Source: an uncultured Candidatus Saccharibacteria bacterium | GTDB lineage: Bacteria > Patescibacteriota > Minisyncoccia > Phycocordibacterales > UBA12079 | DNA: 64,000 bases | Direction: 5' to 3' | Assembly (NCBI GenBank): GCA_964459145.1 | Contig: CAYWKC010000001.1 | Coordinates: forward strand, 40,200 to 104,199 | Shown here: in pieces, positions 2,845 through 59,316 of the stretch | Position numbering within the stretch: position 1 is the stretch's first letter | Layout of the letters: each line of letters opens with the position of its first letter | The notes under the pieces: model-generated | What the model was told of the DNA's origin: nothing | The model's input: the letters and a program-made list of their open reading frames with translations, nothing else | Databases searched by the model: none | Position numbers and translations under genes: made by a program

Positions 2845-3675
2845 ATGGCCAAGTATATTTCTCAAAGAGCCATACAAAGGCAAAGAAAAAGGTTTGGGAG
2901 AAGAGTAGTATTGTTAATATTAATTTTTTCCTTTTTACTTTTCCTTTTTTCATGGTTGTCTAAGCTAGAAAAATTTAATATTTCTAATATAGACATTAGT
3001 GGAAACTCTATTATTAAAGAAGAAGAAATTTTAGAAATAATAAACAAAAACATTACAGGTAAATATTTATGGTTGTTTTCTAAAAGTAATTTTTTAATTT
3101 ATCCTAAGTCAAAAATTAAAGAAGAGTTGTTAGAATCTTTTATCCAAATAAAAGAATTAAATATTACCTTCGGGGATTTCCAATCAATTGTTGTTGAGGT
3201 TATTGAAAGAAAACCCTATGCTCTTTGGTGTAACGGGATAGAGGAAAACGATTGTTATTTTATGGATAAGATGGCTTATCTTTATGATAAAGCTCCTCTT
3301 TTTTTGAATGATGTTTATTTTAAATATGTGGATGGTTTGTCGAGTGTTTCAACCTCAACTCCTTCTTCTGAGATTTTGCGACAAACTTATTTAGAGCAAA
3401 AGAAGGATGGTTATTTTGATAAAGTAAATTTATTTATTCGTTTATTGAAGGATATTAATATTAACGGTTATAGATTGGTTATCAAAGAAAATAATGATTA
3501 TGAATTATTTTTTAATGATGAAAATAAATTAATTTTTGATGGTAATCAAGATTTAGATGAAATTTTTGAAGATTTGCAAGCAGTACTGGTTGATTTAAAT
3601 GACTTAAAAGATCAGGAATTTGAGTATATTGATTTGAGATTTAAAAATAAAGTTTTATATAAGTTTAGAAATTAA
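2845..3675 (+). CDS. membrane-anchored FtsQ/DivIB-like (POTRA) protein
   Basis: Basic N-terminus, one TM helix, then a POTRA-like region (KPYALWCNG). Weak similarity only. Confidence 0.35.
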   Translation: MAKYISQRAIQRQRKRFGRRVVLLILIFSFLLFLFSWLSKLEKFNISNIDISGNSIIKEEEILEIINKNITGKYLWLFSKSNFLIYPKSKIKEELLESFIQIKELNITFGDFQSIVVEVIERKPYALWCNGIEENDCYFMDKMAYLYDKAPLFLNDVYFKYVDGLSSVSTSTPSSEILRQTYLEQKKDGYFDKVNLFIRLLKDININGYRLVIKENNDYELFFNDENKLIFDGNQDLDEIFEDLQAVLVDLNDLKDQEFEYIDLRFKNKVLYKFRN

Positions 3676-3707
3676 AAGAATAAAAGATTTTCAAAAGATA
3701 AAATTTA

Positions 3708-3839
3708 AGCAGTGAAAAATTTTTTCTTACAGAACACAAAACAATTACTTAAAAATTCCAAACTCCTCCCAGTAGGTCGTCAAACAGTGGAATTTTTTCT
3801 TGGCTAAAGCCAAGAACAGTAATTTTTTTGTTAAAAATT
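3708..3839 (-). repeat. repeat family copy A (inverted relative to copy B at 23534-23637)
   Basis: About 90 percent identity to 23534-23637 apart from a 30-bp hairpin insertion. Contains an AAAAATTCCA...TGGAATTTTT stem and a GGGAGGAG box. Confidence 0.65.
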
Positions 3840-3887
3840 TTAATGCTTAAATTTTATCTTTTGAAAATCTTTTAAAACAACATTGTA

Positions 3888-4898
3888 ATGGAAAATTTTT
3901 GGAAAAAATTAAGCAAAAAGAAAAAACCATTTTTTTGTTTGGCGCCGATGGCGGATGTAACCGACAGAGCTTTCCGACAAATTGTGGCTAAATATAGTAG
4001 ATTTATCTTACCCGACGGTAGCCAAGAAGGAGGGCCAGGTGTTTTCTTTACAGAGATGGTGGCCTGTGATGGTCTGTGTTCTCAGGGAAAGGAAAAATTA
4101 TTAGAACTTTTGAAATTTTCAAAAATTGAAAAACCAATTGTGGCGCAGTTATTTGGATCTCATCCAGAAAATTTTTATCAATCAGCTCAATTAGTAAAAA
4201 AATTGGGTTTTGATGGGATAGATATCAATATGGGTTGCCCTCAAAAAAATATTCTGAAACAAGGAGCAGGAGCCGATTTGATTAATCATCCTGAGTTAGC
4301 GAAGGAAATAATTCGTGCGACCAAACGGGGGGCAGGGGACTTACCTGTGTCTGTTAAGACACGGATTGGTTTCAATAAGAATGAGTTGAAAACATGGTTA
4401 CCAGTTTTGTTAGAAGAAAAACCGACCGTTATTACAATTCATGGTCGAACGAAGAAAGAAATGTCAAAAGTTCCAGCTCATTGGGATGTTATAAAAAGGG
4501 GAGTGGAAATGGCTAAAAATTCAGAGGTTCTAATTATTGGTAATGGTGATGTGCAAAATATTGAAGATGGACGACAAAAAGCCCAAGCAAGTGGGGTAGA
4601 TGGAATAATGGTAGGGCGAGCAATTTTAGGCAAACCGTGTTTATTTAATGACTTGGTAGTTGGATTGCCAAGTGAAAAAAAGAGATTAGAAATGTTGAAA
4701 AAACATCTGAAATTATTTGAAAAATTTTATGGAGGGAAAAAGAGAAGTAAGAATTTTGCTTTGATGAAAAAACATATGAAGGCCTATTTGTCTGGTTTTG
4801 AAAAGGCCAAAGAATTAAGAATTAAATTGATGAAATGTGGAAGCGAACAAGAAGCCATAGCAATAATTGATTTACTTAAAACTCCAAGCACTAAGTAA
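3888..4898 (+). CDS. dus: tRNA-dihydrouridine synthase
   Basis: CLAPMADVTDRAFR and DINMGCPQKN TIM-barrel Dus motifs. Confidence 0.8.
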   Translation: MENFWKKLSKKKKPFFCLAPMADVTDRAFRQIVAKYSRFILPDGSQEGGPGVFFTEMVACDGLCSQGKEKLLELLKFSKIEKPIVAQLFGSHPENFYQSAQLVKKLGFDGIDINMGCPQKNILKQGAGADLINHPELAKEIIRATKRGAGDLPVSVKTRIGFNKNELKTWLPVLLEEKPTVITIHGRTKKEMSKVPAHWDVIKRGVEMAKNSEVLIIGNGDVQNIEDGRQKAQASGVDGIMVGRAILGKPCLFNDLVVGLPSEKKRLEMLKKHLKLFEKFYGGKKRSKNFALMKKHMKAYLSGFEKAKELRIKLMKCGSEQEAIAIIDLLKTPSTK

Positions 4899-4948: not shown

Positions 4949-4956
4949 AATGTGTT

Positions 4957-5470
4957 CTTTTATATCTATAAGCCGGATTCTGTTTACCCGACCATCGTAA
5001 AATGGTTTAGGGTTTGATAGCCATTTATCTAGGAAGATTGTTACCAATCTTCTCAAGCGGTACTTCCGGCACCACTTTTTTGAGAAGTTAAACTTCTCAA
5101 AAAAGTGGTGCCGGACACGACCTTGCACTTAGGTAAGGATTTAGCCGTTTCACCCCCTCACCCAGAACAGTGCCAACAAATTAAAATTTGTCAAAAATTA
5201 ACTAAATTTTAATTTACCATTAGGGACTGTTTTTGTGCTATTTTATGTTTGCAAAGCAAACAGCACTGTTCTGGGTGAGGGACTACACCCCCGAAAGGAT
5301 GCCTAAAATTCTTTCGAATTTTAGCGTCTCTGCTCGCACCTCTACAACCACAAAGTTGACGACGGGCGTTACCCGCTACCTTGCTCCGAGCACCAAAATA
5401 GTGCTGGAAGTGTCCGGACTTTCCTCCAAGCCTTATAAAAATAAGGCCCAGTAACTATCCGATATAAAAG
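4957..5470 (-). ncRNA. rnpB: RNase P RNA (bacterial type A) with large insertions
   Basis: Minus strand shows GGAGGAAAGTCCGGAC (P4 5' strand), GGTAACGCCCG (P10/11), ACAGAATCCGGCTTAT (P4 3' strand) and a P1 pairing CTTTTATATC/GATATAAAAG. A TAGTATAAT -10 box lies just upstream on the minus strand. Confidence 0.8.
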
Positions 5471-12313: not shown

Positions 12314-12418
12314 TCCAGAAGAAGTAGGGCGGTTTGGGGTGAATAGGGTGGAATTATGGAGTTATTCGTTTCGGGAGGATTTGGGGAGGTCCGACCTCCC
12401 GAGATTGGTGGAGTAGGA

Positions 12419-13189
12419 TTATTCTTCTTTCTGGGTGGTTTGAAAAAAGACATTGTCGCAGGATGGGGATTTGGTGAAGCCGGCTGATTGAGCTTCTGCC
12501 TCGGTGCAGAAATAGGCCTCGCCTTTTTTGGGATCTATTTTTACTGATGAATAAGAAGGGCAATCGGGTAAAAAGTATAGGTTGCCAGCATCTATGGTAG
12601 AAATGTTACCTTTAATGATACAATCAGAGTTGTCTGGTTGTGCATCTATTGTCCCTTTAAAGTCTTTGGGTAATTTTTCGCAAGTCCCCCAAGCTCCTTT
12701 CTTGTATTGTTTGGCTTTGCCTTCGGCGTTAGATAGATAATCTTTATATCTAAAATCTGGTGGGGTGGGGAGAGCCACAGCAAAACCGTTGTCTATCATA
12801 TATTTACTAAGCATAATATCATCTTCCTTTTCTATGTTTGATGGAAGGAAAACATGGCGGAGCAGGCGACCGAAACGGTCTGTTCCTGAAGAATCTCTTT
12901 CTAAACGAACTTCTTTATCTAGAATCAAATCATTAAGGGCTTGGGTGGCTTCTGCAAAATAACATTCATTTTTTTCTGGTGCGGAGATATTTAGGATTCT
13001 GACTGTAACAACACCATCTTCTTCTTTAGCACCGGCAATTTCAAAAGTATCACCGTCAAGCACCCTTAAGACTTTGTGGAGATTGTCTGGTTGACCACTG
13101 TAATCTTTGGTTTTGATAATTTGGTAGCCGATTAGACCAGAACTGGCCAAGAGGGCAGTGATGGCTGAGAGAATGACTTTGGTTTTCAT
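12419..13189 (-). CDS. secreted thermonuclease (SNase-like) with C-terminal Cys-rich domain
   Basis: Signal or TM N-terminus; LRVLDGDTFEI...VRILNISAPE SNase motifs. C-terminal about 60 aa carry four Cys and an F.TEAEAQSAGF.K.PSC motif reminiscent of the Ada-type zinc-binding motif. Confidence 0.7.
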   Translation of the reverse strand: MKTKVILSAITALLASSGLIGYQIIKTKDYSGQPDNLHKVLRVLDGDTFEIAGAKEEDGVVTVRILNISAPEKNECYFAEATQALNDLILDKEVRLERDSSGTDRFGRLLRHVFLPSNIEKEDDIMLSKYMIDNGFAVALPTPPDFRYKDYLSNAEGKAKQYKKGAWGTCEKLPKDFKGTIDAQPDNSDCIIKGNISTIDAGNLYFLPDCPSYSSVKIDPKKGEAYFCTEAEAQSAGFTKSPSCDNVFFQTTQKEE

Positions 13190-13621: not shown

Positions 13622-14020
13622 AGAAAAGAGTAGGGGATTAATAGTCAAAAGTCCATAAAGTCAGAAAAATTTGCAGAGCAAATTTTTCCCTTTTGACTTT
13701 TGACTTTATAAACCTTCGACTTAAAATAATTATGTGGGAAAAAATTTTGGTAATAGTTTTATTTGTTTTTGGTTTAGTTTTATATGCTTTTACTGTGCAT
13801 TTAGATAAGGTCTTAAATGATCCCATTATTCAGAATAATGTAGACTTTACTTATTAAGCATAGAATTTAAAAAACCCTCCGCCAAGCTTCCCCCAAACAG
13901 AACATAATATTTTTTTCTCCCTACGGGTCTGAAAAAAATTTATTCATTCCTTCTTCGCTCTGGCTCCGAAAGTCTGTTTGGTGGAACTTGGTTACGGGTT
14001 TCGAGAATTGGTAATTTCTT

Positions 14021-16386: not shown

Positions 16387-16659
16387 ATGTCACATAAAAA
16401 AGCGGGTGGATCAACCAAAAATTTAAGAGATTCAGGACCTCAATATTTGGGAACAAAGTTATATGATGGACAAAAGGCCAAAGTTGGTTCTATTGTGGTT
16501 CGCCAAAGAGGAACTAAAATTTTAGCTGGAAAAAATGTTCAAGTTGGTAAAGATCATACCCTTTTTGCTGTCAAGGAAGGCAAAGTAAAATTTACTAAAA
16601 AAAGAAAATTAAATTTTGATGGTTCTACTAGACGAAAAAAAGTAGCTAATATTATATAA
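16387..16659 (+). CDS. rpmA: 50S ribosomal protein L27
   Basis: [12 protein letters not shown]...[11 protein letters not shown]. Start placed at the internal ATG giving a canonical 90-aa L27. Confidence 0.9.
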
Positions 16660-16676
16660 AAAATAAGTAAAAATAA

Positions 16677-16706
16677 AAATTCCGAATTAATTAATTCGGA
16701 ATTTTT
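16677..16706 (+). terminator. terminator after rpmA
   Basis: AAATTCCGAATTAATTAATTCGGAATTTTT. Confidence 0.6.
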
Positions 16707-16738
16707 ATTTTTATATATAATTTTTTATTTATATAATT

Positions 16739-16793
16739 AATTTATGGCTATGCGATAGCCATAAATTATTATGGCTATCGCATAGCCATAATT
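16739..16793. repeat. two adjacent copies of a 29-bp REP-like perfect palindrome
   Basis: AATTTATGGCTATGCGATAGCCATAAATT then TTATGGCTATCGCATAGCCATAA (inverted centre). Same element at 25148-25176 and 53564-53592. Confidence 0.8.
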
Positions 16794-16875
16794 GGTTTTT
16801 AAAACCCAGACCCAAGCCCATACCATTTTAAAAACTAATATAGCCAAAGTTCCGGAATACTATAAAAACTTAAGT

Positions 16876-22972: not shown

Positions 22973-23077
22973 TATAGTTTTTATTGGGGATTAATAAATT
23001 ACTTAATTACTCATTGTAAATAATAACATACATATATGTATAAAGTTATCCATATAGAATTTTAAAATAAAAAAATC

Positions 23078-23441
23078 ACCGATACCCGCTTATGCGTTGG
23101 AGTATCGGTGATTACTTAAAGCGGCCATGGCTTAGGTTGATCCGGCGAGGGATATTGATACCCCAGAGGATTCGTCCGTAAACCAAACCTGACCGAGGGA
23201 CAAAAGTAGGTTGAGAGAATCTTCCTCTCTCTGGCTTATCCGATGTTCGCAATCGCGTTGCGAAGGATAGGAGGCGCTCTGAATTTGAGAGCCCATCCAT
23301 GCGCCTGAGCCGTCTTTATCTTGGACAGGCGTCGGTGGGGATTATTTCTCCCCAGAATAATGGGCTGCACCGTTGTAGTTACGGCGGAAGGCGGCCTTAT
23401 CGCCAGCCATAAGCCCGTGTCCTCAAAACATTCTCTCAACC
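23078..23441 (-). ncRNA. unclassified GC-rich structured RNA with own promoter and terminator
   Basis: Minus strand has TTGACA-17-TATCAT (plus 23449-23477) and a terminator hairpin at 23086-23111 plus T-run. 13-bp long-range pairing GGGTTGAGAGAAT/ATTCTCTCAACC; G+C far above flanks; no coherent ORF. Confidence 0.4.
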
Positions 23442-23533
23442 CACCTGTATGATAAGACACAGTTTAATTATTGTCAAGCATTTTTATTTTCTTCCACACA
23501 GAAATAAGGGGGAAAAGCCAATTTTGAGGATTA

Positions 23534-23637
23534 AAATTTTTAACAAAAAAATTCCACTGTTTAACGACCTATTGGGAGGAGTTTGAAATTTTTAAGGAAT
23601 TGTTTTGTGGTGTTTCAACAAAAAATTTTTTACTGCT
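23534..23637 (+). repeat. repeat family copy B upstream of dnaB
   Basis: AATTTTTAACAAAAAAATTCCACTGTTTAACGACCTATTGGGAGGAGTTTGAAATTTTTAAGGAATTGTTTTGTGG...TACTGCT. Confidence 0.65.
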
Positions 23638-23747
23638 CAAAAATTAGCTTCTTTCCTTATTTCTTTTACATTTATCCCCTCTCTATCCCCTCTTTTTTCC
23701 CTATTTTCCATCTTTTGAAATTTAACAATTATGATAAAATACAAAAT

Positions 23748-25148
23748 ATGGAAGTGATTAATAATAATCCTAATTTAAGAATTCCTCCTCAAAACATTGA
23801 TTCCGAAAAGGCCTTGTTGGGTTCTATTATGTTAAGACCAGAAGTCATCTATGATGTTTTAGATATTATTTCTGAAGATTGTTTCTATTCTGAAAAACAT
23901 CGCATTGTGTTCAAAGCAATGTTAGATTTATTTTCTAAAAAAGAACCGATTGATTTATTAACTTTATCTTCAATTCTGAAAGAACAAAAACAATTAGAAC
24001 AAATTGGTGGAACTACTTTTTTGACAGAATTAGTAGAAACAGTTCCCTCTTCAGCCAATGCTGAACACTACGCTAAAATTGTTCACAAAAAATATATGAT
24101 GCGACGATTGATTGGAGCGGGAGAAGAAATTTCCAATTTGGGTTATAACGAAACAGAAAATTTGGAGATAGCTTTAGACAAAGCGGAAAAAAGTATTTTT
24201 ACTGTAACGGGGTCTTTGATTTCCCGTTCTTTTATAAAAATAAAAGAGGCTTTAGGTGAAGCTTGGGAGAGATTGGATAGATTACATAAATCAGAAGGTA
24301 AATTAAGAGGAGTGCCAACTGGTTTTAAAGAATTAGATGATAAATTATCTGGTTTTCAAAATTCTGATTTAATTATTATCGCAGCTCGCCCTTCAATAGG
24401 AAAAACATCTTTGGCTCTTGATATTGCTAGAAAGGTGGCGATTAATTATAATTTGCCAGTCGCTATTTTTTCTTTAGAAATGAGTTCCCAACAATTAGTG
24501 GACAGAATGTTGGCGGCTGATTCTAATGTAGATGCTTGGAAATTAAGAACAGGACGGTTAACAAGAGATGAAGAATTCAATTCTATTAGGGAATCCCTGG
24601 ACCGTCTCTCTAAAGCCCCTATTTTTATAGATGACCAAGCTTCAAATAATATTTTGAATATGCGTTCGGTAGCCCGTAAGCTAAAAAGACAACATGGTTT
24701 GAAATTAATTATTGTTGATTATTTACAATTGATGGCACCGACTGAATCTAGAGGGTCTGATTCAATGGTACAACAGGTCACAGAAATTTCTCGCTCTCTT
24801 AAACATTTGGCTCGAGAATTAGATATACCAGTAATTGCTTTGTCCCAGTTAAGCCGAGCAGTAGAAAGTCGAGGGGGGCGTCCTCGATTGTCTGATTTGC
24901 GTGATTCTGGTTCTATTGAACAAGATGCTGATTTAGTAGCATTTATTCACAGAGAAAATAATGAAGATGGTTCGGGTAAATCATGTTTAGCCGAAATTTT
25001 GATAGAAAAACACAGAAATGGACCTACGGGAAAAGTAGAACTTAATTTTAATGAGAAGAAAGCTACCTTTCAGAGTGTAGAAAAAAATGATTTTAGTGAT
25101 TTTGCTATTAAAGAGGAAGAAGAAACTGAACAAAGCGATGATTTTTAA
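23748..25148 (+). CDS. dnaB: replicative DNA helicase DnaB
   Basis: N-terminal DnaB domain, Walker A (AARPSIGKTSLALDIA), H4 motif. Start set at MEVINNN; the upstream 55 codons of the ORF lie in the repeat element. Confidence 0.9.
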   Translation: MEVINNNPNLRIPPQNIDSEKALLGSIMLRPEVIYDVLDIISEDCFYSEKHRIVFKAMLDLFSKKEPIDLLTLSSILKEQKQLEQIGGTTFLTELVETVPSSANAEHYAKIVHKKYMMRRLIGAGEEISNLGYNETENLEIALDKAEKSIFTVTGSLISRSFIKIKEALGEAWERLDRLHKSEGKLRGVPTGFKELDDKLSGFQNSDLIIIAARPSIGKTSLALDIARKVAINYNLPVAIFSLEMSSQQLVDRMLAADSNVDAWKLRTGRLTRDEEFNSIRESLDRLSKAPIFIDDQASNNILNMRSVARKLKRQHGLKLIIVDYLQLMAPTESRGSDSMVQQVTEISRSLKHLARELDIPVIALSQLSRAVESRGGRPRLSDLRDSGSIEQDADLVAFIHRENNEDGSGKSCLAEILIEKHRNGPTGKVELNFNEKKATFQSVEKNDFSDFAIKEEEETEQSDDF

Positions 25149-25176
25149 ATTTATGGCTATGCGATAGCCATAAATT
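25148..25176. repeat. 29-bp REP-like palindrome overlapping the dnaB stop codon
   Basis: AATTTATGGCTATGCGATAGCCATAAATT. Confidence 0.8.
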
Positions 25177-25186
25177 AATTATATAA

Positions 25187-47682: not shown

Positions 47683-48375
47683 TTAACCCCATTGTTTGGC
47701 TTTGAGAGCTTCCTCGGCCGCTGATTGTTCTGCTTCTTGTTTAGAAACCCCTTCTCCCTCTGCCACTAATTTATTGTTTAAAAATACTCCCACTCTAAAT
47801 CTTTTATCATGGTCAGGTCCAGTCTCTTCTAAAACTTGATAATTGGGTGTTATTTTCACAATTTCTTGAGCTTTTTCTTGAAAATTACTTTTGGCATCTT
47901 GCCACAAATTATTTTTAACCACTTCATTTATCTTTCCAAAAAAGTTATCAGCAATAAATTTTTGAACAATGACATAACCTTGGTCTAAATAAATTGCCCC
48001 AATAATCGCTTCTACTGCATTGGCCATAATAAAAGTCCGTGCTCTGCCTGTATCTTTAGCTTCACCCTTTGATAATTGTAAAAAATTATTTATTTCTAAT
48101 TTCTCTGCTACTTGAGATAAAGAAGTAGTATTGACTAAAGCTGACCGGTAAGCTGTTAAAGCTCCTTCATTCTCTTGTGAAAATTTTTCATAGAGATAAT
48201 GAGTAGTCACCAACTCCAAAACAGCATCACCTAAATACTCTAATCTTTCGTTATGTTCAGAAACTTCATTTTGATGTTCATTAACATAAGAACGATGAGT
48301 TAGAGCTGTTTTTAGTAATTCTTTATTCTTAAATTTTAATCCAATTTTTTCTTCAAATTTTGTAAAATCAATCAT
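47683..48375 (-). CDS. rnc: ribonuclease III
   Basis: ERLEYLGDAVL signature; C-terminal dsRBD. Confidence 0.9.
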   Translation of the reverse strand: MIDFTKFEEKIGLKFKNKELLKTALTHRSYVNEHQNEVSEHNERLEYLGDAVLELVTTHYLYEKFSQENEGALTAYRSALVNTTSLSQVAEKLEINNFLQLSKGEAKDTGRARTFIMANAVEAIIGAIYLDQGYVIVQKFIADNFFGKINEVVKNNLWQDAKSNFQEKAQEIVKITPNYQVLEETGPDHDKRFRVGVFLNNKLVAEGEGVSKQEAEQSAAEEALKAKQWG

Positions 48376-53563: not shown

Positions 53564-53592
53564 AATTTATGGCTATGCGATAGCCGTAAATT
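53564..53592. repeat. 29-bp REP-like palindrome after dnaE (one mismatch)
   Basis: AATTTATGGCTATGCGATAGCCGTAAATT. Confidence 0.75.
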
Positions 53593-53599
53593 TTGATTG

Positions 53600-53951: not shown

Positions 53952-54143
53952 TTACTGTTTTTCTACTAAAAATCAAAGTTATTTACATGAACCCCCCCCC
54001 AATCACCCCCAATCACCCCAAAACCGCCCTACTTCTTAGGGGTTTAACCTTATTTATGAAGTATCTGTGAAGGTTATCCGCAAAGGTTCAACCTCCGCGA
54101 ACCAAAAAAACAACTCGGCAATTAAAAATATGTCATTTCTATT

Positions 54144-54491: not shown

Positions 54492-55151
54492 TTAATTTCT
54501 CCAATCATCCCCCCCCACCCAACTGTCATCCCCTTCATAGGCAATCAGCTTGACATCAAAATCAATCTTCCCATCAAACGCTTCCCGATCTAACTTCCCC
54601 GTGCAATAAACAAAGTAGCCCGTCTTAGAAACTTTCAACCCAGTCTTTCTCAATAACCACTGATAAACTTCCATTTGTCTTTTATAGCCGTCTTGCCATT
54701 CTTTATCTAATTCTACCACTGGTTCATCTTTCGCGGTCGCTTTATAATCAACGACAATATATTCCCCCTGACTATTTATCCAAAGATCATCAATCGCCCC
54801 GGTGATGACCAAACCAGTTTTTTTGTCCTCGTAACGAACACCTTTAAAATTCTCCCTCCAAATATCCAACTCCTCATGAGCGACCGGCCGAGCATCTACC
54901 CCATATTGCTCCTGTAAAGGATGTTGTTCCCCTTTCGCCCGATGAATATCAAATTCTTTTTTAAGTAGAGTATCAACCGCACTGTTGATAGCAAAAGGAA
55001 ACCCCGGCGGTCTCTTCGTTCCCAATTTATTATCAATATAAAAACAACGAGGACATTGCCGAAACAAATCTATCTTAGACCGACTCAGTTTCCATTGCTT
55101 TCCTCCGTAATTCCACGAAGCTTTTCTGTTGGAGTTATAATAATCTGACAT
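54492..55151 (-). CDS. PD-(D/E)xK nuclease, Cas4/RecB-like
   Basis: N-terminal LSRSKIDLFRQCPRCFY motif, GAIDDL and IVVDYKAT nuclease motifs. Confidence 0.6.
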   Translation of the reverse strand: MSDYYNSNRKASWNYGGKQWKLSRSKIDLFRQCPRCFYIDNKLGTKRPPGFPFAINSAVDTLLKKEFDIHRAKGEQHPLQEQYGVDARPVAHEELDIWRENFKGVRYEDKKTGLVITGAIDDLWINSQGEYIVVDYKATAKDEPVVELDKEWQDGYKRQMEVYQWLLRKTGLKVSKTGYFVYCTGKLDREAFDGKIDFDVKLIAYEGDDSWVGGDDWRN

Positions 55152-55181
55152 GGTTTTAATTTAAAATTTATAATTTTTAAT

Positions 55182-57419
55182 CTACAAGTTTAAATTTTTC
55201 CATTCTTTTAAATCCGAATCTTTTGCAATCTTCCACAAACCAGATACTTCTTTTATCAAACCCCCTTTAAATTTTTTATTTTCTTTTAACCAATTTTCTA
55301 ACGCTCTTGCTCTCATTCTTGCACCTTCTCCCTCCGCAGTAAAGCCACTTTTTGTATCCACAATCCAAATATTATTTTTGGTTTTTATAAACCAATCAGG
55401 AAAAAATAACCTTCCGTCCTCCCTTTTCACAGAAAAATTATCTGACCCATTATCCCCATTCTTATACCACCAAATAACACTTTTATTTTTCTCCAAATAA
55501 TCCACAAAACTTTTTTCATTTTTATTTTCTTTTTCTAAGTAACAAGGCTCTAAAGCACATTTTTTGCTTTCTATTTCTTTATACAAAGAATTATATCTAA
55601 CTTCTGACAAAGGAATTTTTATCGGTTTCGTTTCATCTATCCTTTTTTCTTTTTCATTTTCTTCTATTTTTCGTACCTCTTTATATTTCAAAAGGGCTTC
55701 ATTTATTATAGGAACCAGAGTACTATTTGATCCTTTCATTAAATCATTAACAATATAATGATAATATTCTTTCTTCTCCCCTATTTTTAAAATATCTTCA
55801 AAAAATACATTCAAAGCTGATTTTAATACTCCATAGGAACGAATTATTCCACCATATTTTGATTCTTCTTCCTGTTTAGACAATACTTCAATACAAAGTT
55901 TCTTATATAGTTTTTCTACATCTGGATAAGACATTTCTTGTCCAAAATCTTTTGCTTCTTTTAATCGTTTTATAAACTTATCATAATCAGTAATTTTTTG
56001 GTCAACTATTAAATTCAAATCTAAATGATTATTAAAATAAAAACCAGCTTTTTTTAAGGCTTCTTTGTTTTTAAAATATTTTTTTGCAACCTCAATAAAA
56101 GTGAATTGAAAAGTTTTTCCTAAATCATTATAACTAGTTCTTTGAGAGACAAAAGTTTTTAAATCAATTTGTTCTACATCTTTTTTTATTTTTGCTACAA
56201 GAAGTTTTGTTTCATTTGGTCCTATTCCTTGAAAATTTTTATAACTGTCTATAATTTCATTTTTTGTGTAAGTCGTATATAAATAAGAATGATTAAGGAT
56301 AGACTCTAAATATTTTTTTGCTTCTGGCATTCTCAAAACTCTTCCTAAAAGCTGAATTTGAAAGACTGGGCTCTTGGTTTCCCTATACATCAACATCACT
56401 TGGGCTCTAGGGCAATCCCATCCAGTCGCTGGGGCTTGTTTAAAAAGTAAAACATCAACTTTATTATTATGTTTTGTTATATTTTCTAAGTTTTCTTTAT
56501 CAGAACCAGTCAACCACACTGCTATTTTATTTTTTTCAACACCTTTTTCTTCTAAATACCCCAAAACAATATCTTTTTGTTTTCTCTCTTCTTGATCTTT
56601 CTTTTCATCATTAGGAAGTTGAATCATCAAAAGAGGATTAACATCAATATTATTTTTTTCATAAACTTTTTTTAATTCTTCTCTTTTTTTAAGAGCCAGA
56701 TCTAAAACATACCTATCTAAATCTTCTTCTTTTTTATCTTTAAAATCTTCTTTTGTTTGTGATAAAATACCCTCTTTAATAAGTCCTGCATTAACAACAT
56801 CTTCATAAGGTATATCTACATCAACATTCTCACTATCATGAGTAGCCGTTATTTTTAAAATGATTCTAGGGTTTATTTCTTTTATAACTTCATCAGCTAA
56901 TTGAGTTCTCACTTCCCTATGGGCTTCATCAATTATTAAAATAATATTTCTATCTTCTAATTTGGTTCTTTCTATCATTCCATCCCAAGTAATCTCTGTT
57001 TCTCCCTCTCTTCTTAATTTTCTTCCCTCTTTGTTCGCAGTTTTTATCTTAGACCAATTAAAAAACAAAATTTCATTTTGTTCTAAAATTTTACCTCTAC
57101 TTAAATCATTCAAATCAGTAATATCTATGGCAACATTTCCATCATAGTATTGCATAAATTTATTTTTACTTTGGGAAGCAAGATCTCCGTCTTTTGACCC
57201 TCCAATACTAACCCACAAAAAAGTTAAATCAGCCTCAACAAGTCTTGGGTCATTTGTAAGGTCTTTTATAAATTGAGCCATCATCACAGTTTTCCCCGAT
57301 CCTGTTGGAGCTTGAAATCTTATAGATTGCATTGATTCTTTTTTCCACTTATGAAGAAACTCGTCCATCAACTTTTCTGTAGCTTCTATTTGAAATGGTT
57401 TCAATATTATTTGTTTCAT
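55182..57419 (-). CDS. res: Type III restriction enzyme Res subunit (SF2 helicase plus PD-(D/E)xK)
   Basis: Motif I FQAPTGSGKT, DEAH box IIDEAHR, C-terminal FPD...IVDTK endonuclease motif. Confidence 0.8.
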   Translation of the reverse strand: MKQIILKPFQIEATEKLMDEFLHKWKKESMQSIRFQAPTGSGKTVMMAQFIKDLTNDPRLVEADLTFLWVSIGGSKDGDLASQSKNKFMQYYDGNVAIDITDLNDLSRGKILEQNEILFFNWSKIKTANKEGRKLRREGETEITWDGMIERTKLEDRNIILIIDEAHREVRTQLADEVIKEINPRIILKITATHDSENVDVDIPYEDVVNAGLIKEGILSQTKEDFKDKKEEDLDRYVLDLALKKREELKKVYEKNNIDVNPLLMIQLPNDEKKDQEERKQKDIVLGYLEEKGVEKNKIAVWLTGSDKENLENITKHNNKVDVLLFKQAPATGWDCPRAQVMLMYRETKSPVFQIQLLGRVLRMPEAKKYLESILNHSYLYTTYTKNEIIDSYKNFQGIGPNETKLLVAKIKKDVEQIDLKTFVSQRTSYNDLGKTFQFTFIEVAKKYFKNKEALKKAGFYFNNHLDLNLIVDQKITDYDKFIKRLKEAKDFGQEMSYPDVEKLYKKLCIEVLSKQEEESKYGGIIRSYGVLKSALNVFFEDILKIGEKKEYYHYIVNDLMKGSNSTLVPIINEALLKYKEVRKIEENEKEKRIDETKPIKIPLSEVRYNSLYKEIESKKCALEPCYLEKENKNEKSFVDYLEKNKSVIWWYKNGDNGSDNFSVKREDGRLFFPDWFIKTKNNIWIVDTKSGFTAEGEGARMRARALENWLKENKKFKGGLIKEVSGLWKIAKDSDLKEWKNLNL

Positions 57420-57420
57420 A

Positions 57421-59316
57421 TTAGTTGTTCAAACTCTTATATATTTTTAATATCGGTTCCGGAATATGTTCTACTTTAACATTTTTATATTCTGCATAAT
57501 CATTTTTAAAATCATTCCCCCCATAAGAAAAAATATAAATTTTCACTTCTTTCTTATCTAATATTTTTTTCTCCATTTCTGGTAAATTATCCAAATTCTC
57601 TCTAAAATAGATTCCCACAAATTTATCTTTTTCGTCAGTAAAAATTTGATAATACTTATTTTTAACGATTTCCTTAAATGTATCTTCCTTTAAAGCTATC
57701 ATTTGCCCAGCTTCGTGAGTAAACTCTAATTTCTTTTTATCAGAAACATTTTTAATATTTTCTACATCTACAAATTCAGTTTTAAAATATTCTAAAGCTC
57801 CTCCCAATCCCCCCACTTTTTCCCCATTGGGTTTTGTATACCCTTTTATAACTTTTTTAATTCTTGGTTGAGTTATCCTCCTACAAATTCCATACTCTTG
57901 AATTTCTTTTGCACTCATACCTTTTTCTTGCAATTCTTTTTCAAACCCATTCAATTCATTGTTGGTACACAAAATAAATCTCCTATTTCCTCCGTCTTCT
58001 TTGTTTAAATCTAAAACCGCATGTCCTGTTGTTCCAGAACCAGCCATAAAATCAAGAATTACTGAATTTTTCTTCTCAGAGATTTTTATTAACAATTTTA
58101 TTAAACCAATTGGTTTTGGTGATGTAAAATATGAATTTGAACCAAAAAGTTCCTCTATTTCTTTTGAAGCATTTTCATTTGTTGCCACATTATCAAACCA
58201 AGTATCTACTATCTGACCTTGAATCTCTGATAAAAATAATTTTCTATTAGGAACACCATTTTTTGAAACAACAAGTCTCCCGTCTTTTATATATTTATCA
58301 AATGTACTTTTTGAACATCTCCATTTTCCTTTTATAATCCTACCATCTGGCATCTTTATAGAAAATTCTTTGTTTTTAGAACTATCAGGTTGCAATAATG
58401 GAACCAAACGCCAATCACCCCGAGGATCATTATCAGGGTTTTTATATGTTTTTTTAACGTAATCTTCGTTTAAAGGAATATTATTTAGTTGACTCAAATC
58501 AATATTTTTTGTGTAGCAAAATATGTAATCATGAACACGAGCAACATTTTTAGATAATCTTGGTGGAGTTTTTGTTCTACGCCATAAAAAATTAGCTATA
58601 AAATTTTCTCCCCCAAAAATTCCATCGCAAAGAATTTTTAATTGGGCCATCTCATTATCATCAATAGATATAAAAATAACCCCATCATTTTTTAATATTT
58701 TTTTTGCCAACACTAACCTTTTTTCCATAAAAGAAAGCCACTTTGAATGTCTAAAAGTATCTTCTCTATCTACGAAAGAATCATTATAAATAAAATCTTT
58801 ATTGCCTGTATTATATGGGGGATCAATATAAATAACATCAATTTTATTTTTATGAGTATAATTTAAAACTTGCAAAGCATGATAATTATCTCCCTCAATT
58901 AAAATATTTTTAGGTTTATTTAAGTCTTTATCTTTAATTCGTTTATCTTCTTTAGAAACTAAAATTGGGGCTTCTGTTTTACATCTTTCAACGACTTCTT
59001 CCTTGTGGTCTTCCCAAACAAGTCCGTACTTTTTCTGCTTTTTTAAAAGTTGCAATTCTTTGATAAGTTCGTCTTTTGTATATTCTTCAAAATCTTTTTT
59101 ACTTACAGGACTTTTTTTGGCTAAATCAGAAACTAAACCCTTTTCTTTAATCTCTCTAATATGAGCCACTGTATATCTTCTGTCTTTTCTCTTCCCAATT
59201 CTATCAGGCACAATAAAACCCTCCTTTTCCCAATTCCGCAAAGTGTCCTCATGCACACCCAAAAGCTCCGCCACCTCCCCAATCTTATATAATTTTTCCC
59301 TATTTTCTTTTTTCAT
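57421..59316 (-). CDS. mod: Type III Mod-like DNA methyltransferase with N-terminal MerR-type HTH
   Basis: Beta-class order: motif IV IYIDPPYNTGN precedes motif I FMAGSGTTGHA. N-terminal LYKIGEVAELLGVHEDTLRNWEKEGF HTH. Stop and start overlap with res. Confidence 0.8.
   Translation of the reverse strand: MKKENREKLYKIGEVAELLGVHEDTLRNWEKEGFIVPDRIGKRKDRRYTVAHIREIKEKGLVSDLAKKSPVSKKDFEEYTKDELIKELQLLKKQKKYGLVWEDHKEEVVERCKTEAPILVSKEDKRIKDKDLNKPKNILIEGDNYHALQVLNYTHKNKIDVIYIDPPYNTGNKDFIYNDSFVDREDTFRHSKWLSFMEKRLVLAKKILKNDGVIFISIDDNEMAQLKILCDGIFGGENFIANFLWRRTKTPPRLSKNVARVHDYIFCYTKNIDLSQLNNIPLNEDYVKKTYKNPDNDPRGDWRLVPLLQPDSSKNKEFSIKMPDGRIIKGKWRCSKSTFDKYIKDGRLVVSKNGVPNRKLFLSEIQGQIVDTWFDNVATNENASKEIEELFGSNSYFTSPKPIGLIKLLIKISEKKNSVILDFMAGSGTTGHAVLDLNKEDGGNRRFILCTNNELNGFEKELQEKGMSAKEIQEYGICRRITQPRIKKVIKGYTKPNGEKVGGLGGALEYFKTEFVDVENIKNVSDKKKLEFTHEAGQMIALKEDTFKEIVKNKYYQIFTDEKDKFVGIYFRENLDNLPEMEKKILDKKEVKIYIFSYGGNDFKNDYAEYKNVKVEHIPEPILKIYKSLNN

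What the first reader, a model, noticed from the sequence alone, without database searches (positions are those of the whole stretch)
3708..3839. A roughly 105-130-bp repeat present twice in inverted orientation (upstream of dusB and of dnaB)
3708-3839 (reverse complement) and 23534-23637 are about 90 percent identical. Copy A has an extra 30-bp hairpin (CTTGGCTAAAGCCAAG). Both contain an AAAAATTCCA...TGGAATTTTT stem enclosing CCACTGTTTRACGACCTAYTGGGAGGAGTTTG, and both end with AAAAAATTTTTYACTGCT. Copy B accounts for the artificial 55-codon N-terminal extension of the dnaB ORF. Possible roles are a MITE-like repeat, a bidirectional terminator or attenuator module, or a small RNA.
Basis: seen in the sequence. 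Interest (0 to 1): 0.5.

Follow-up and report, generated by a model that had tools for sequence, protein, structure and literature searches.

The report
Two-copy palindromic intergenic repeat (MITE-like)
A 165-195-bp non-coding DNA segment that folds back on itself sits at two intergenic sites of a tiny-genome (Patescibacteria) bacterium where close relatives have nothing or a different hairpin element, so it is most likely a small mobile "foldback" repeat, not a regulator of dusB or dnaB.

Summary
Copy A is 3681-3874 (matching strand is -). Copy B is 23498-23666 (+). A 64-nt core is 94% identical between the copies, and the homologous part overall is about 87%. A carries an extra 30-nt hairpin.

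Each copy is a nested imperfect palindrome with arms of about 45 nt. The outer arms differ completely between A and B, yet within each copy they mirror each other: 10 of 31 arm pairs changed on both sides.

No third copy turned up in the window, in 8.8 kb beyond it, in 1.95 Mb of relatives' loci, in GTDB species genomes, in JGI metagenome contigs, in IMG/VR, or in Rfam.

Relatives with 88-92% DnaB identity lack it upstream of dnaB. Relatives' ftsQ-like/dusB spacers are either 3-14 nt long or hold unrelated palindromic elements.

dnaB has a conserved extended -10 box 7 nt before its ATG, so copy B lies outside the dnaB mRNA, between divergent promoters. That rules out an attenuator or terminator role there.

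Best reading: a lineage-specific, non-autonomous palindromic insertion element of the MITE/REPIN/ERIC kind. It is one of several such families in this clade. Its transposase, target duplication and genome-wide copy number are all unknown. Interest is low to moderate.

The parts
3681..3874 (-). Copy A, whole element (194 nt): a nested imperfect palindrome between the ftsQ-like ORF (stop at 3675) and dusB (ATG at 3888).
   Evidence: I1, I3, I5. Folds end to end at -68.7 kcal/mol, z -9.65. nhmmer match at 3697-3860.
3833..3874 (-). Copy A, 5' arm in element orientation. Contains a promoter-like site, TTCAAA-17-TAAAAT (3865-3837).
   Evidence: I3 (42 nt, 90% complementary to 3681-3722). Promoter scan (9 of 12 matches, no more than shuffles give).
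3681..3722 (-). Copy A, 3' arm in element orientation.
   Evidence: I3. Four-arm alignment.
3799..3828 (-). A-only 30-nt segment flanked by the direct repeat AAAAAATT. It holds the hairpin CTTGGCTTTAGCCAAG. On the + strand (3797-3816) this reads as a terminator-like stem followed by CAGTAATTTTTTT, downstream of the ftsQ-like ORF.
3735..3798 (-). Copy A core (64 nt): an AAAAATTCCA/TGGAATTTTT stem around CTGTTTGACGACCTACTGGGAGGAGT, then AAGTAATTGTTTTGTG.
   Evidence: 60 of 64 positions identical to B.
23498..23666 (+). Copy B, whole element (169 nt) including its own outer arms. It lies between the ncRNA promoter (- strand) and the DnaA-box-like pair upstream of dnaB.
   Evidence: Folds end to end: RNA -36.8 kcal/mol, z -1.8; DNA z -3.2. 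nhmmer match at 23516-23651.
23498..23541 (+). Copy B left arm. The outer part, ACAGAAATAAGG, is unrelated to A's outer arm.
23620..23666 (+). Copy B right arm. The outer part, CCTTATTTCTTT, mirrors B's left arm.
23546..23609 (+). Copy B core (64 nt).
23732..23740 (+). Context: dnaB extended -10 box TGATAAAAT, 7 nt before the true ATG (23748). It places copy B outside the dnaB mRNA.
   Evidence: The same TGnTAnAAT, 6-7 nt, ATG layout is seen in 12 relatives. Coordinates.
23672..23690 (+). Context: two DnaA-box-like 8-mers (TTATCCCC, CTATCCCC) 11 bp apart, starting 6 nt after copy B ends. They are conserved in all relatives examined.

Best explanation
The two copies belong to a small, non-coding, non-autonomous palindromic insertion element. 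It is a foldback repeat of the same general kind as bacterial MITEs, REPINs and ERIC/Correia elements.

Shown:
- A conserved asymmetric core of about 64-105 nt sits inside long nested inverted repeats.
- Both copies occupy intergenic sites that are empty, or differently occupied, in the closest available relatives.
- The arms of each copy stay self-complementary even where their sequence differs between the copies.
- Several other families with the same architecture are scattered over different loci and genomes of this Paceibacteria clade.

Inferred:
- The element was copied into each site by a trans-acting enzyme or a hairpin-dependent process that needs the foldback. This would explain why the pairing is maintained and the arm sequence is not.
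- At site B it may have landed in the loop of a small pre-existing hairpin.
- Its effects on the host are side effects. Copy A splits a formerly contiguous ftsQ-like/dusB pair, placing a very stable hairpin and a terminator-like stem-loop in their joint transcript. Copy B only pushes the ncRNA promoter and the dnaB control region 170 bp apart.
For: - Repeat significance and extent.
- Nested palindrome.
- Arm covariation: four-arm alignment. In the 31-pair outer helix, 10 pairs changed on both sides and 1 on one side. Slid controls give 1-5, and 2 of 500 shuffles reach the observed value.
- Empty or differently filled sites upstream of dnaB: L087 (92% DnaB identity), L174 and L177 (91%), L178 (90%), L005 and L006 (88-89%).
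- L005 has a small hairpin, ATAGAAAATAG-TC-TTATTTTCTAT, where B's outer arms sit (hairpin-only z 3.5, 12 of 2000 shuffles reach it).
- ftsQ-like/dusB spacers are only 3-14 nt in L090, L091, L092 and L094. L088, L089 and L093 hold other hairpin elements there.
- Same architecture in other dispersed families: window 13870-14000 matches the L089 spacer and L007:64-112. The L178 dnaB-upstream element matches L089:665-862, again with mirrored arm changes. L007 'element X' has 2 copies and also occurs in L177.
- No conserved ORF across the element: a 1-nt indel shifts the frame between copies.
- No Rfam family.
- Precedent: compensatory changes across the hairpin of mobile REPINs are reported in PMC3116915.
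Against: - Only two copies are known. None was found in 8.8 kb beyond the window, in 1.95 Mb of relatives' loci, in GTDB species representatives, in JGI contigs (that scan demonstrably misses at least one contig carrying the element, L086), in IMG/VR, or among predicted proteins read through the core.
- No target-site duplication can be shown. A TA at both ends of A is possible but trivial in DNA with about 32% G+C.
- No transposase or RAYT is present among the 30 window ORFs scanned against Pfam, nor among the called genes of the loci fetched by protein look-up.
- Unlike classical MITEs, the ends are the least conserved part and the centre the most conserved.
- Arm symmetry could also arise without selection, through template-switch 'quasipalindrome correction' during replication.
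Confidence: 0.55

Rival explanations
1. One-off duplication. A palindromic stretch that arose at one site was copied once to the other by illegitimate recombination or repair. There is no dedicated mobility and no family.
For: Exactly two copies are known. All searches for more were negative.
Against: Neither site carries it in relatives, so neither copy looks ancestral. The copies differ by about 13% plus a 30-nt indel and have unrelated outer arms, so this is not a recent simple copy. Several other families of the same architecture are dispersed over loci and genomes of the clade, which argues for a recurring process.
Confidence: 0.17
2. Host-selected cis-acting RNA structure. A long hairpin in mRNA acts as a terminator, attenuator, RNase III site or stabiliser that tunes expression of the flanking genes.
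For: Pairing is maintained by double changes. Copy A lies inside a probable ftsQ-like/dusB transcript, and its extra hairpin is terminator-like on the + strand. The window encodes RNase III at 47683-48375.
Against: Copy B lies between divergent promoters, upstream of the conserved near-ATG promoter of dnaB, so no predicted mRNA contains it. The two copies face opposite ways relative to the downstream gene. The element is absent from relatives at both loci. B folds no better than shuffled sequence as RNA over its central 116 nt (z +0.4) and only weakly over its full length (z -1.8).
Confidence: 0.12
3. Independent small-RNA gene present in two copies, transcribed from a promoter in the 5' arm.
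For: In A, TTCAAA-17-TAAAAT sits in the 5' arm on the element's sense strand. L007 has TTGACA-16-TAAAAT, with 23 of 23 identity to A's arm, at the equivalent place upstream of dnaB.
Against: B has no acceptable -35 box, and the scan finds no promoter there. Promoter-like hits in A are no more frequent than in shuffles. There is no terminator after the core in either copy, no Rfam hit, and the core is absent from all relatives.
Confidence: 0.07
4. DNA-level module: a cruciform or protein-binding site that insulates or modulates neighbouring promoters, for example the DnaA-box-controlled dnaB promoter.
For: B ends 5 nt before the first DnaA-box-like motif, with 5 nt between them. In relatives the same position holds other palindromes, some abutting or including the box (L174, L178, L012). 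B folds better than shuffles with DNA parameters (z -3.2).
Against: Copy A has no such promoter context. Closest relatives L087, L005 and L006 manage without any large element at this position. There is no evidence of a binding protein.
Confidence: 0.05
5. Degenerate type I toxin-antitoxin-like cassette. A strong GGGAGGAG ribosome-binding site inside a hairpin is followed by a tiny ORF (A: MEFLSNCFVFCKKKFFTA).
For: SD-like GGGAGGAG and a TTG start are sequestered in the core stem. The first 10 codons are similar in A and B.
Against: The SD-to-TTG spacing is only about 3 nt. The peptide is 18 aa and not a clear membrane helix. A 1-nt indel shifts the frame in B, fusing it to dnaB. No predicted protein in 5.8 billion shares words with the core translations.
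Confidence: 0.02

Closest known systems
REPINs (REP doublets forming hairpins, mobilised by RAYT transposases; PMC3116915)
   Same: Non-coding extragenic element whose unit is a long imperfect hairpin. Changes on one side of the hairpin are mirrored on the other (compared with the paper's statement read).
   Different: In REPINs the two ends (REP 16-mers) are the conserved part and the middle varies. Here the middle is conserved and the ends vary. REPINs occur in tens to hundreds of copies with a RAYT gene. Here 2 copies are known and no RAYT has been seen. REPINs are not described in Patescibacteria.
Bacterial MITEs such as Correia/NEMIS (Neisseria) and RUP (Streptococcus pneumoniae) (own knowledge; reviews PMC2229807 and PMC10969869 were listed but not read)
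   Same: Size of 100-200 bp, terminal inverted repeats, intergenic location often just upstream of a start codon, long and short variants differing by an internal block (the 30-nt segment here), and promoter-like and terminator-like motifs carried along.
   Different: No demonstrable TA or other target duplication. The terminal repeats are not conserved between copies. No cognate IS is known. No sequence similarity was tested or claimed.
ERIC/IRU elements of enterobacteria (own knowledge)
   Same: Imperfect palindrome of about 127 bp in transcribed intergenic regions of operons, with size variants produced by internal insertions at fixed points. Like copy A versus copy B.
   Different: Unrelated taxon and sequence. 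ERIC copies are numerous and conserved across species.
Intrinsic (Rho-independent) terminators
   Same: The A-only hairpin TTCTTGGCTAAAGCCAAGAA plus a T-run, on the + strand after the ftsQ-like ORF.
   Different: The hairpin is only one module of one copy. The shared element has AT-rich stems with no adjacent U-run, and copy B is not downstream of any gene.

Membership tests
MITE | Small (<~500 bp) and without coding capacity | tested here: met
   The copies are 194 and 169 nt. The only ORFs are 20-45 codons and are not conserved between the copies; a 1-nt indel shifts the frame.
MITE | Terminal inverted repeats | tested here: met
   A has 42-nt arms, 90% complementary. B has arms of about 45 nt. 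However, the outer arm sequences are not shared between the copies.
MITE | Target-site duplication flanking each copy | tested here: inconclusive
   A could be read as TA|...|TA. B shows no duplication at its outer ends. Relatives are too diverged to define exact empty sites.
MITE | Multiple dispersed copies in a genome | tested here: inconclusive
   There are 2 copies in about 73 kb of this genome. The rest of the genome could not be reached.
MITE | Autonomous IS or transposase with matching ends | tested here: inconclusive
   No transposase domain in the 30 window ORFs scanned against Pfam. The arm sequence does not recur in the window. The whole genome is not available.
MITE | Presence/absence polymorphism against related genomes | tested here: met
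   Absent upstream of dnaB in L087, L174, L177, L178, L005 and L006. Absent from the ftsQ-like/dusB spacer in L088-L095.
REPIN | Two inverted repeats plus spacer forming a hairpin, with compensatory changes | tested here: met
   10 of 31 outer pairs changed on both sides.
REPIN | Conserved REP sequence at both ends, shared by all copies | tested here: not met
   The outer ~20 nt of the arms are unrelated between A and B. The conserved part is the centre.
REPIN | Cognate RAYT (Y1 transposase) gene flanked by the repeats | not testable with these tools
   None in the window. The rest of the genome was not retrievable.
Intrinsic terminator / attenuator of the downstream gene | Lies within the transcript, in the sense orientation, with a G+C-rich stem followed by a U-run | tested here: not met
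   B is upstream of the dnaB promoter (extended -10 box 7 nt before the ATG, conserved in 12 relatives) and upstream of the divergent ncRNA promoter. No terminator-like site was found in B. Only the A-specific hairpin qualifies, and only on the + strand.
Any Rfam RNA family | Covariance-model match at or near the gathering score | tested here: not met
   Nothing at gathering thresholds. The best sub-threshold hits have E of about 1 or higher.

The most novel reading that the evidence does not exclude
Family 1 and the other families seen here (window 13870-14000 / L089 / L007; L178 / L089:665-862) could represent a class of Patescibacteria elements built differently from MITEs and REPINs. In this reading a conserved asymmetric core is carried inside arms whose sequence is free but whose pairing is enforced. 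That would be either because the core inserts into the loops of pre-existing intergenic hairpins, or because it is mobilised as a single-stranded foldback by an unidentified enzyme. The same intergenic slots (upstream of dnaB, between the ftsQ-like ORF and dusB) would then be recurrent landing sites across species.
Probability: 0.15. Interest if true: 0.55.

Novelty: new member of a known kind. Interest (0 to 1): 0.3.

Why it matters
Patescibacteria (CPR) have very small, streamlined genomes, and two targeted full-text searches turned up no description of small non-autonomous repeats in them. One large MITE survey (PMC11602168) does not mention the group.

Several hairpin-element families appear to turn over at the same intergenic slots in this clade. 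If that holds up, these genomes are less static than assumed, and the elements would be useful strain markers.

There is also a practical point. The element creates a false 55-codon N-terminal extension of dnaB, and its 30-nt perfect inverted ends break short-read assemblies: two Logan contigs end exactly there.

For the biology of dusB and dnaB themselves it probably matters little.

Tried and rejected
- Rfam at gathering and permissive thresholds on both copies and on relatives: nothing.
- Exact-pattern scans for the core in GTDB species genomes, JGI metagenome contigs and IMG/VR: 0 hits. The JGI scan is not exhaustive, because JGI contig L086 carries copy B.
- Search of 5.8 billion predicted proteins with the four open translations of the core, to catch copies read through by gene callers: no candidate.
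- Attempts to extend beyond the window. Two look-ups failed because the ORF starts I gave were not the called ones. A third gave 8.8 kb of new sequence with no copy.
- nhmmer profiles of the whole element and of the core against 1.95 Mb of relatives' loci: nothing below E = 0.4.
- DGR template/variable repeat pair: rejected. Both copies are intergenic and the mismatches are not adenine-specific.
- Composite transposon or invertible 19.7-kb segment bounded by the inverted copies: rejected. Gene order across both boundaries is the same as in relatives, and the interior is housekeeping (ftsW, murG, L27, L9, cysS).
- Integron attC site: the R''/R' consensus is not present (read by eye).
- Homology of the core to 'element X' of L177/L007: there is a shared 11-mer, CGACCTATTGG (seen by eye in the L177 sequence), but local alignment was not significant. 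Left as a lead.

Full report
**Organism and setting.** The window is from a low-G+C (about 32%) member of the Patescibacteria, class Paceibacteria, near Campbellbacteria. The best DnaB matches are unnamed metagenome proteins at 92-88% identity, followed by 'Patescibacteria group', 'Pacebacteria' and 'Campbellbacteria' MAGs.

Copy A lies between a 276-aa ORF (2845-3675, no Pfam hit; I call it ftsQ-like because of its neighbours ftsW and murG) and a Dus-family gene (3888-4898). Copy B lies upstream of dnaB, whose true ATG is at 23748.

- The two stretches match in inverted orientation: 84 nt at 87%, 105 nt at 86.7% plus 34 nt at 91%.
- A 64-nt core has only 4 differences.
- A 22-mer of the core occurs twice in the window, against 0.00 expected.
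- Copy A has 30 extra nucleotides (3799-3828), bounded by the direct repeat AAAAAATT and containing the hairpin CTTGGCTTTAGCCAAG.
- The 521-codon 'dnaB' ORF starts at a TTG inside copy B. Homologues, and the gene callers of public contigs, start at 23748.

**The element is larger than reported and is a nested palindrome.** Copy A is flanked by a 42-nt inverted repeat (3681-3722 / 3833-3874, 90% complementary). It folds end to end at -68.7 kcal/mol, with a z-score of -9.65 against shuffles. Aligning the four arms shows that copy B also has arms of about 45 nt (23498-23541 / 23620-23666). B folds end to end less stably (RNA z -1.8, DNA z -3.2).

The outer ~20 nt of the arms are unrelated between the copies: TAAAAGATTTTC... 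in A and ACAGAAATAAGG... in B. Within each copy, however, the two arms mirror each other. In the inner arms, where A and B can be aligned, differences are mirrored too (TAAG to TGAG, AAAATTT to AATTTT on both arms).

Counted on A's fold, the 31-pair outer helix has 10 pairs changed on both sides and 1 changed on one side. Slid controls give 1-5, and 2 of 500 shuffles reach the observed value. Seven further pairs are broken in B, mostly by a 1-nt register shift. The T-to-G difference AAGTAATT to AAGGAATT restores pairing with AATTCC, which the 30-nt indel brings opposite it. With two sequences this is suggestive, not proof. The pattern is clear, though: pairing is kept, sequence is not, and the centre is the conserved part.

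**Both copies sit where relatives have something else.**

*Upstream of dnaB:*
- L087 (92% DnaB identity) has a different upstream gene and no element.
- L174 (91%) has only the cysS terminator hairpin.
- L005 and L006 (88-89%) have the same divergent ncRNA as the window, but only about 40-60 nt between its promoter and the DnaA-box-like pair.
- L178 (90%) has, at that spot, an unrelated 160-nt foldback with 31-nt arms.
- L177 (91%) and L007 (83%) have yet another hairpin element there ('X').
- L005 carries a small hairpin, ATAGAAAATAG-TC-TTATTTTCTAT, exactly where B's outer arms (AGAAATAAGG / CCTTATTTCT) lie. A modelled 'empty' window site aligns to it (hairpin-only z 3.5, 12 of 2000 shuffles reach it). 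This hints that B sits in the loop of an older hairpin.

*Between the ftsQ-like ORF and dusB:*
- The spacer is 3-14 nt or overlapping in L090, L091, L092 and L094.
- L088, L089 and L093 hold other hairpin-rich inserts.
- The nearest DusB relatives anywhere are only 78% identical, so these are the closest available.

**No further copies were found.** I checked the window, 8.8 kb beyond its right end, and 1.95 Mb of relatives' loci with nhmmer. I also checked 185,579 GTDB species genomes, JGI contigs, IMG/VR and predicted proteins. The JGI scan is incomplete, because JGI contig L086 contains copy B. The only outside similarity is a 23 of 23 match of A's arm (AAAATTTAAGCATTAAAATTTTT) upstream of dnaB in L007, where it forms a TTGACA-16-TAAAAT promoter-like site.

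**Functional readings tied to the neighbouring genes do not hold.** In the window and 12 relatives, dnaB has an extended -10 box (TGnTAnAAT) 6-7 nt before the ATG. The dnaB mRNA is therefore leaderless or nearly so, and starts about 80 nt downstream of copy B. On the other side of B is the -35/-10 of a divergent ncRNA (23477-23449; 11 of 12 matches). Copy B is thus between two outward-facing promoters and should not be transcribed, so it cannot be a terminator, attenuator or leader.

The two copies also face opposite ways relative to the downstream genes. A promoter-like site occurs only in A (9 of 12 matches, no better than shuffles). No terminator-like site follows the core. The one terminator-like feature is the A-only hairpin, read on the + strand after the ftsQ-like ORF. 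No ORF is conserved between the copies. Rfam has nothing.

**The same architecture recurs in other families of this clade.**
- The L089 ftsQ-like/dusB spacer element is 79-89% identical to window 13870-14000 (upstream of a dUTPase-like ORF by its sequence; not scanned against Pfam) and to L007:64-112. Its L089 copy carries an extra TTTTGGCAAAGCCAAAA hairpin module, much like A's.
- The L178 dnaB-upstream element matches L089:665-862. The inner arms and an asymmetric core are conserved. The outer arms differ but mirror each other, and the central module is swapped.
- L007 'X' has a second copy 7 kb away and a relative in L177.

So several families of 130-280-nt foldback elements are dispersed over loci and genomes here. 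The dnaB-upstream and ftsQ-like/dusB slots are repeatedly occupied by different ones.

**Interpretation.** The most economical reading is a non-autonomous palindromic insertion element whose foldback is what is maintained. REPINs are the known case where mobile hairpin elements show compensatory changes (PMC3116915). Correia- and ERIC-type elements (own knowledge) are known cases of long and short variants that differ by internal blocks and sit in operon spacers.

It is not a member of any of these families. The conserved-ends criterion of REPINs fails. A target duplication cannot be shown. No transposase was found in the window. Only two copies are known, so a one-off duplication remains a real alternative. 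Symmetry of the arms could also come from replication template switching, not from selection.

**Likely consequences (inferred).** Copy A interrupts an ancestrally contiguous gene pair with a very stable hairpin and a weak terminator. Copy B adds about 170 bp between two divergent promoters. Neither effect has been tested.

**Verdict.** The repeat is real and its anatomy is now better defined. It is a new, so far lineage-restricted example of a known kind of element. Interest is low to moderate.

Noticed in passing
window 23068-23452 (- strand); homologues L005:9535-9868, L006:200-498, L178:925-1378: A G+C-rich, unannotated RNA gene of about 385 nt lies divergent from dnaB. It has a near-consensus promoter (TTGACA-17-TATCAT, 23477-23449) and a terminator hairpin (~23073-23115). 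It is conserved next to dnaB in several relatives, with a long-range closing helix that covaries (9 pairs with double changes) and invariant blocks such as CTCAGGCGCATGG and GGATAAGCCAGAGAGAGGAAGATTCT. There is no Rfam match. This may be more interesting than the assigned finding.
   Followed up: partly
window 23672-23750: dnaB appears to be made as a leaderless mRNA. An extended -10 box (TGATAAAAT, 23732-23740) lies 7 nt before the ATG. Two DnaA-box-like 8-mers (TTATCCCC / CTATCCCC, 11 bp apart) lie just upstream. Both features are conserved in all 12 relatives inspected, suggesting DnaA control of dnaB in this clade.
   Followed up: partly
window 13870-14000: A second long-hairpin intergenic element (RNA fold z -4.6) lies upstream of a dUTPase-like ORF. 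It is 79-89% identical to the element in the ftsQ-like/dusB spacer of relative L089 and to L007:64-112. The L089 copy has an extra TTTTGGCAAAGCCAAAA hairpin module.
   Followed up: partly
L178:1484-1641 and L089:665-862: A third foldback family is shared by two different genomes at different loci. The inner arms and an asymmetric core are about 90% conserved. The outer arms differ but are mirrored within each copy, and the central palindromic module is exchanged.
   Followed up: partly
window 16739-16772, 16766-16799, 25148-25181, 53564-53597: A 29-nt perfect palindrome, AATTTATGGCTATGCGATAGCCATAAATT, occurs four times, each directly after a stop codon (for example the dnaB stop at 25148). It is probably a repeated terminator-type hairpin. 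A separate 66-nt perfect-arm palindrome lies at 16658-16723.
   Followed up: no
window 12319-12420 and 54001-54037 (rc): A G-rich motif, GTAGGGCGGTTTGGGGTGA, is repeated in two intergenic regions. The first is followed by GGAGGTCCGACCTCC...ATTGGTGG, which resembles 'element X' of L007 (two copies) and L177. Its function is unknown.
   Followed up: no
window 4953-5470 (- strand): The RNase P RNA (class A) spans 518 nt against a 367-position model and scores only just above the gathering threshold (105.8 vs 100). It must therefore carry large insertions.
   Followed up: no
L003 and L004 (Logan contigs), ends at window ~3874: Two short-read contigs end exactly in the outer 30 nt of copy A's arm. 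The perfect 30-nt inverted ends act as an assembly breakpoint.
   Followed up: no
window 54492-59316 (- strand): A cluster encodes a MerR-fused N6/N4 DNA methyltransferase, a ResIII/SNF2-like helicase and a PD-(D/E)XK nuclease, according to the Pfam tags of the matching public contig. It looks like a restriction or defence island next to dnaE.
   Followed up: no
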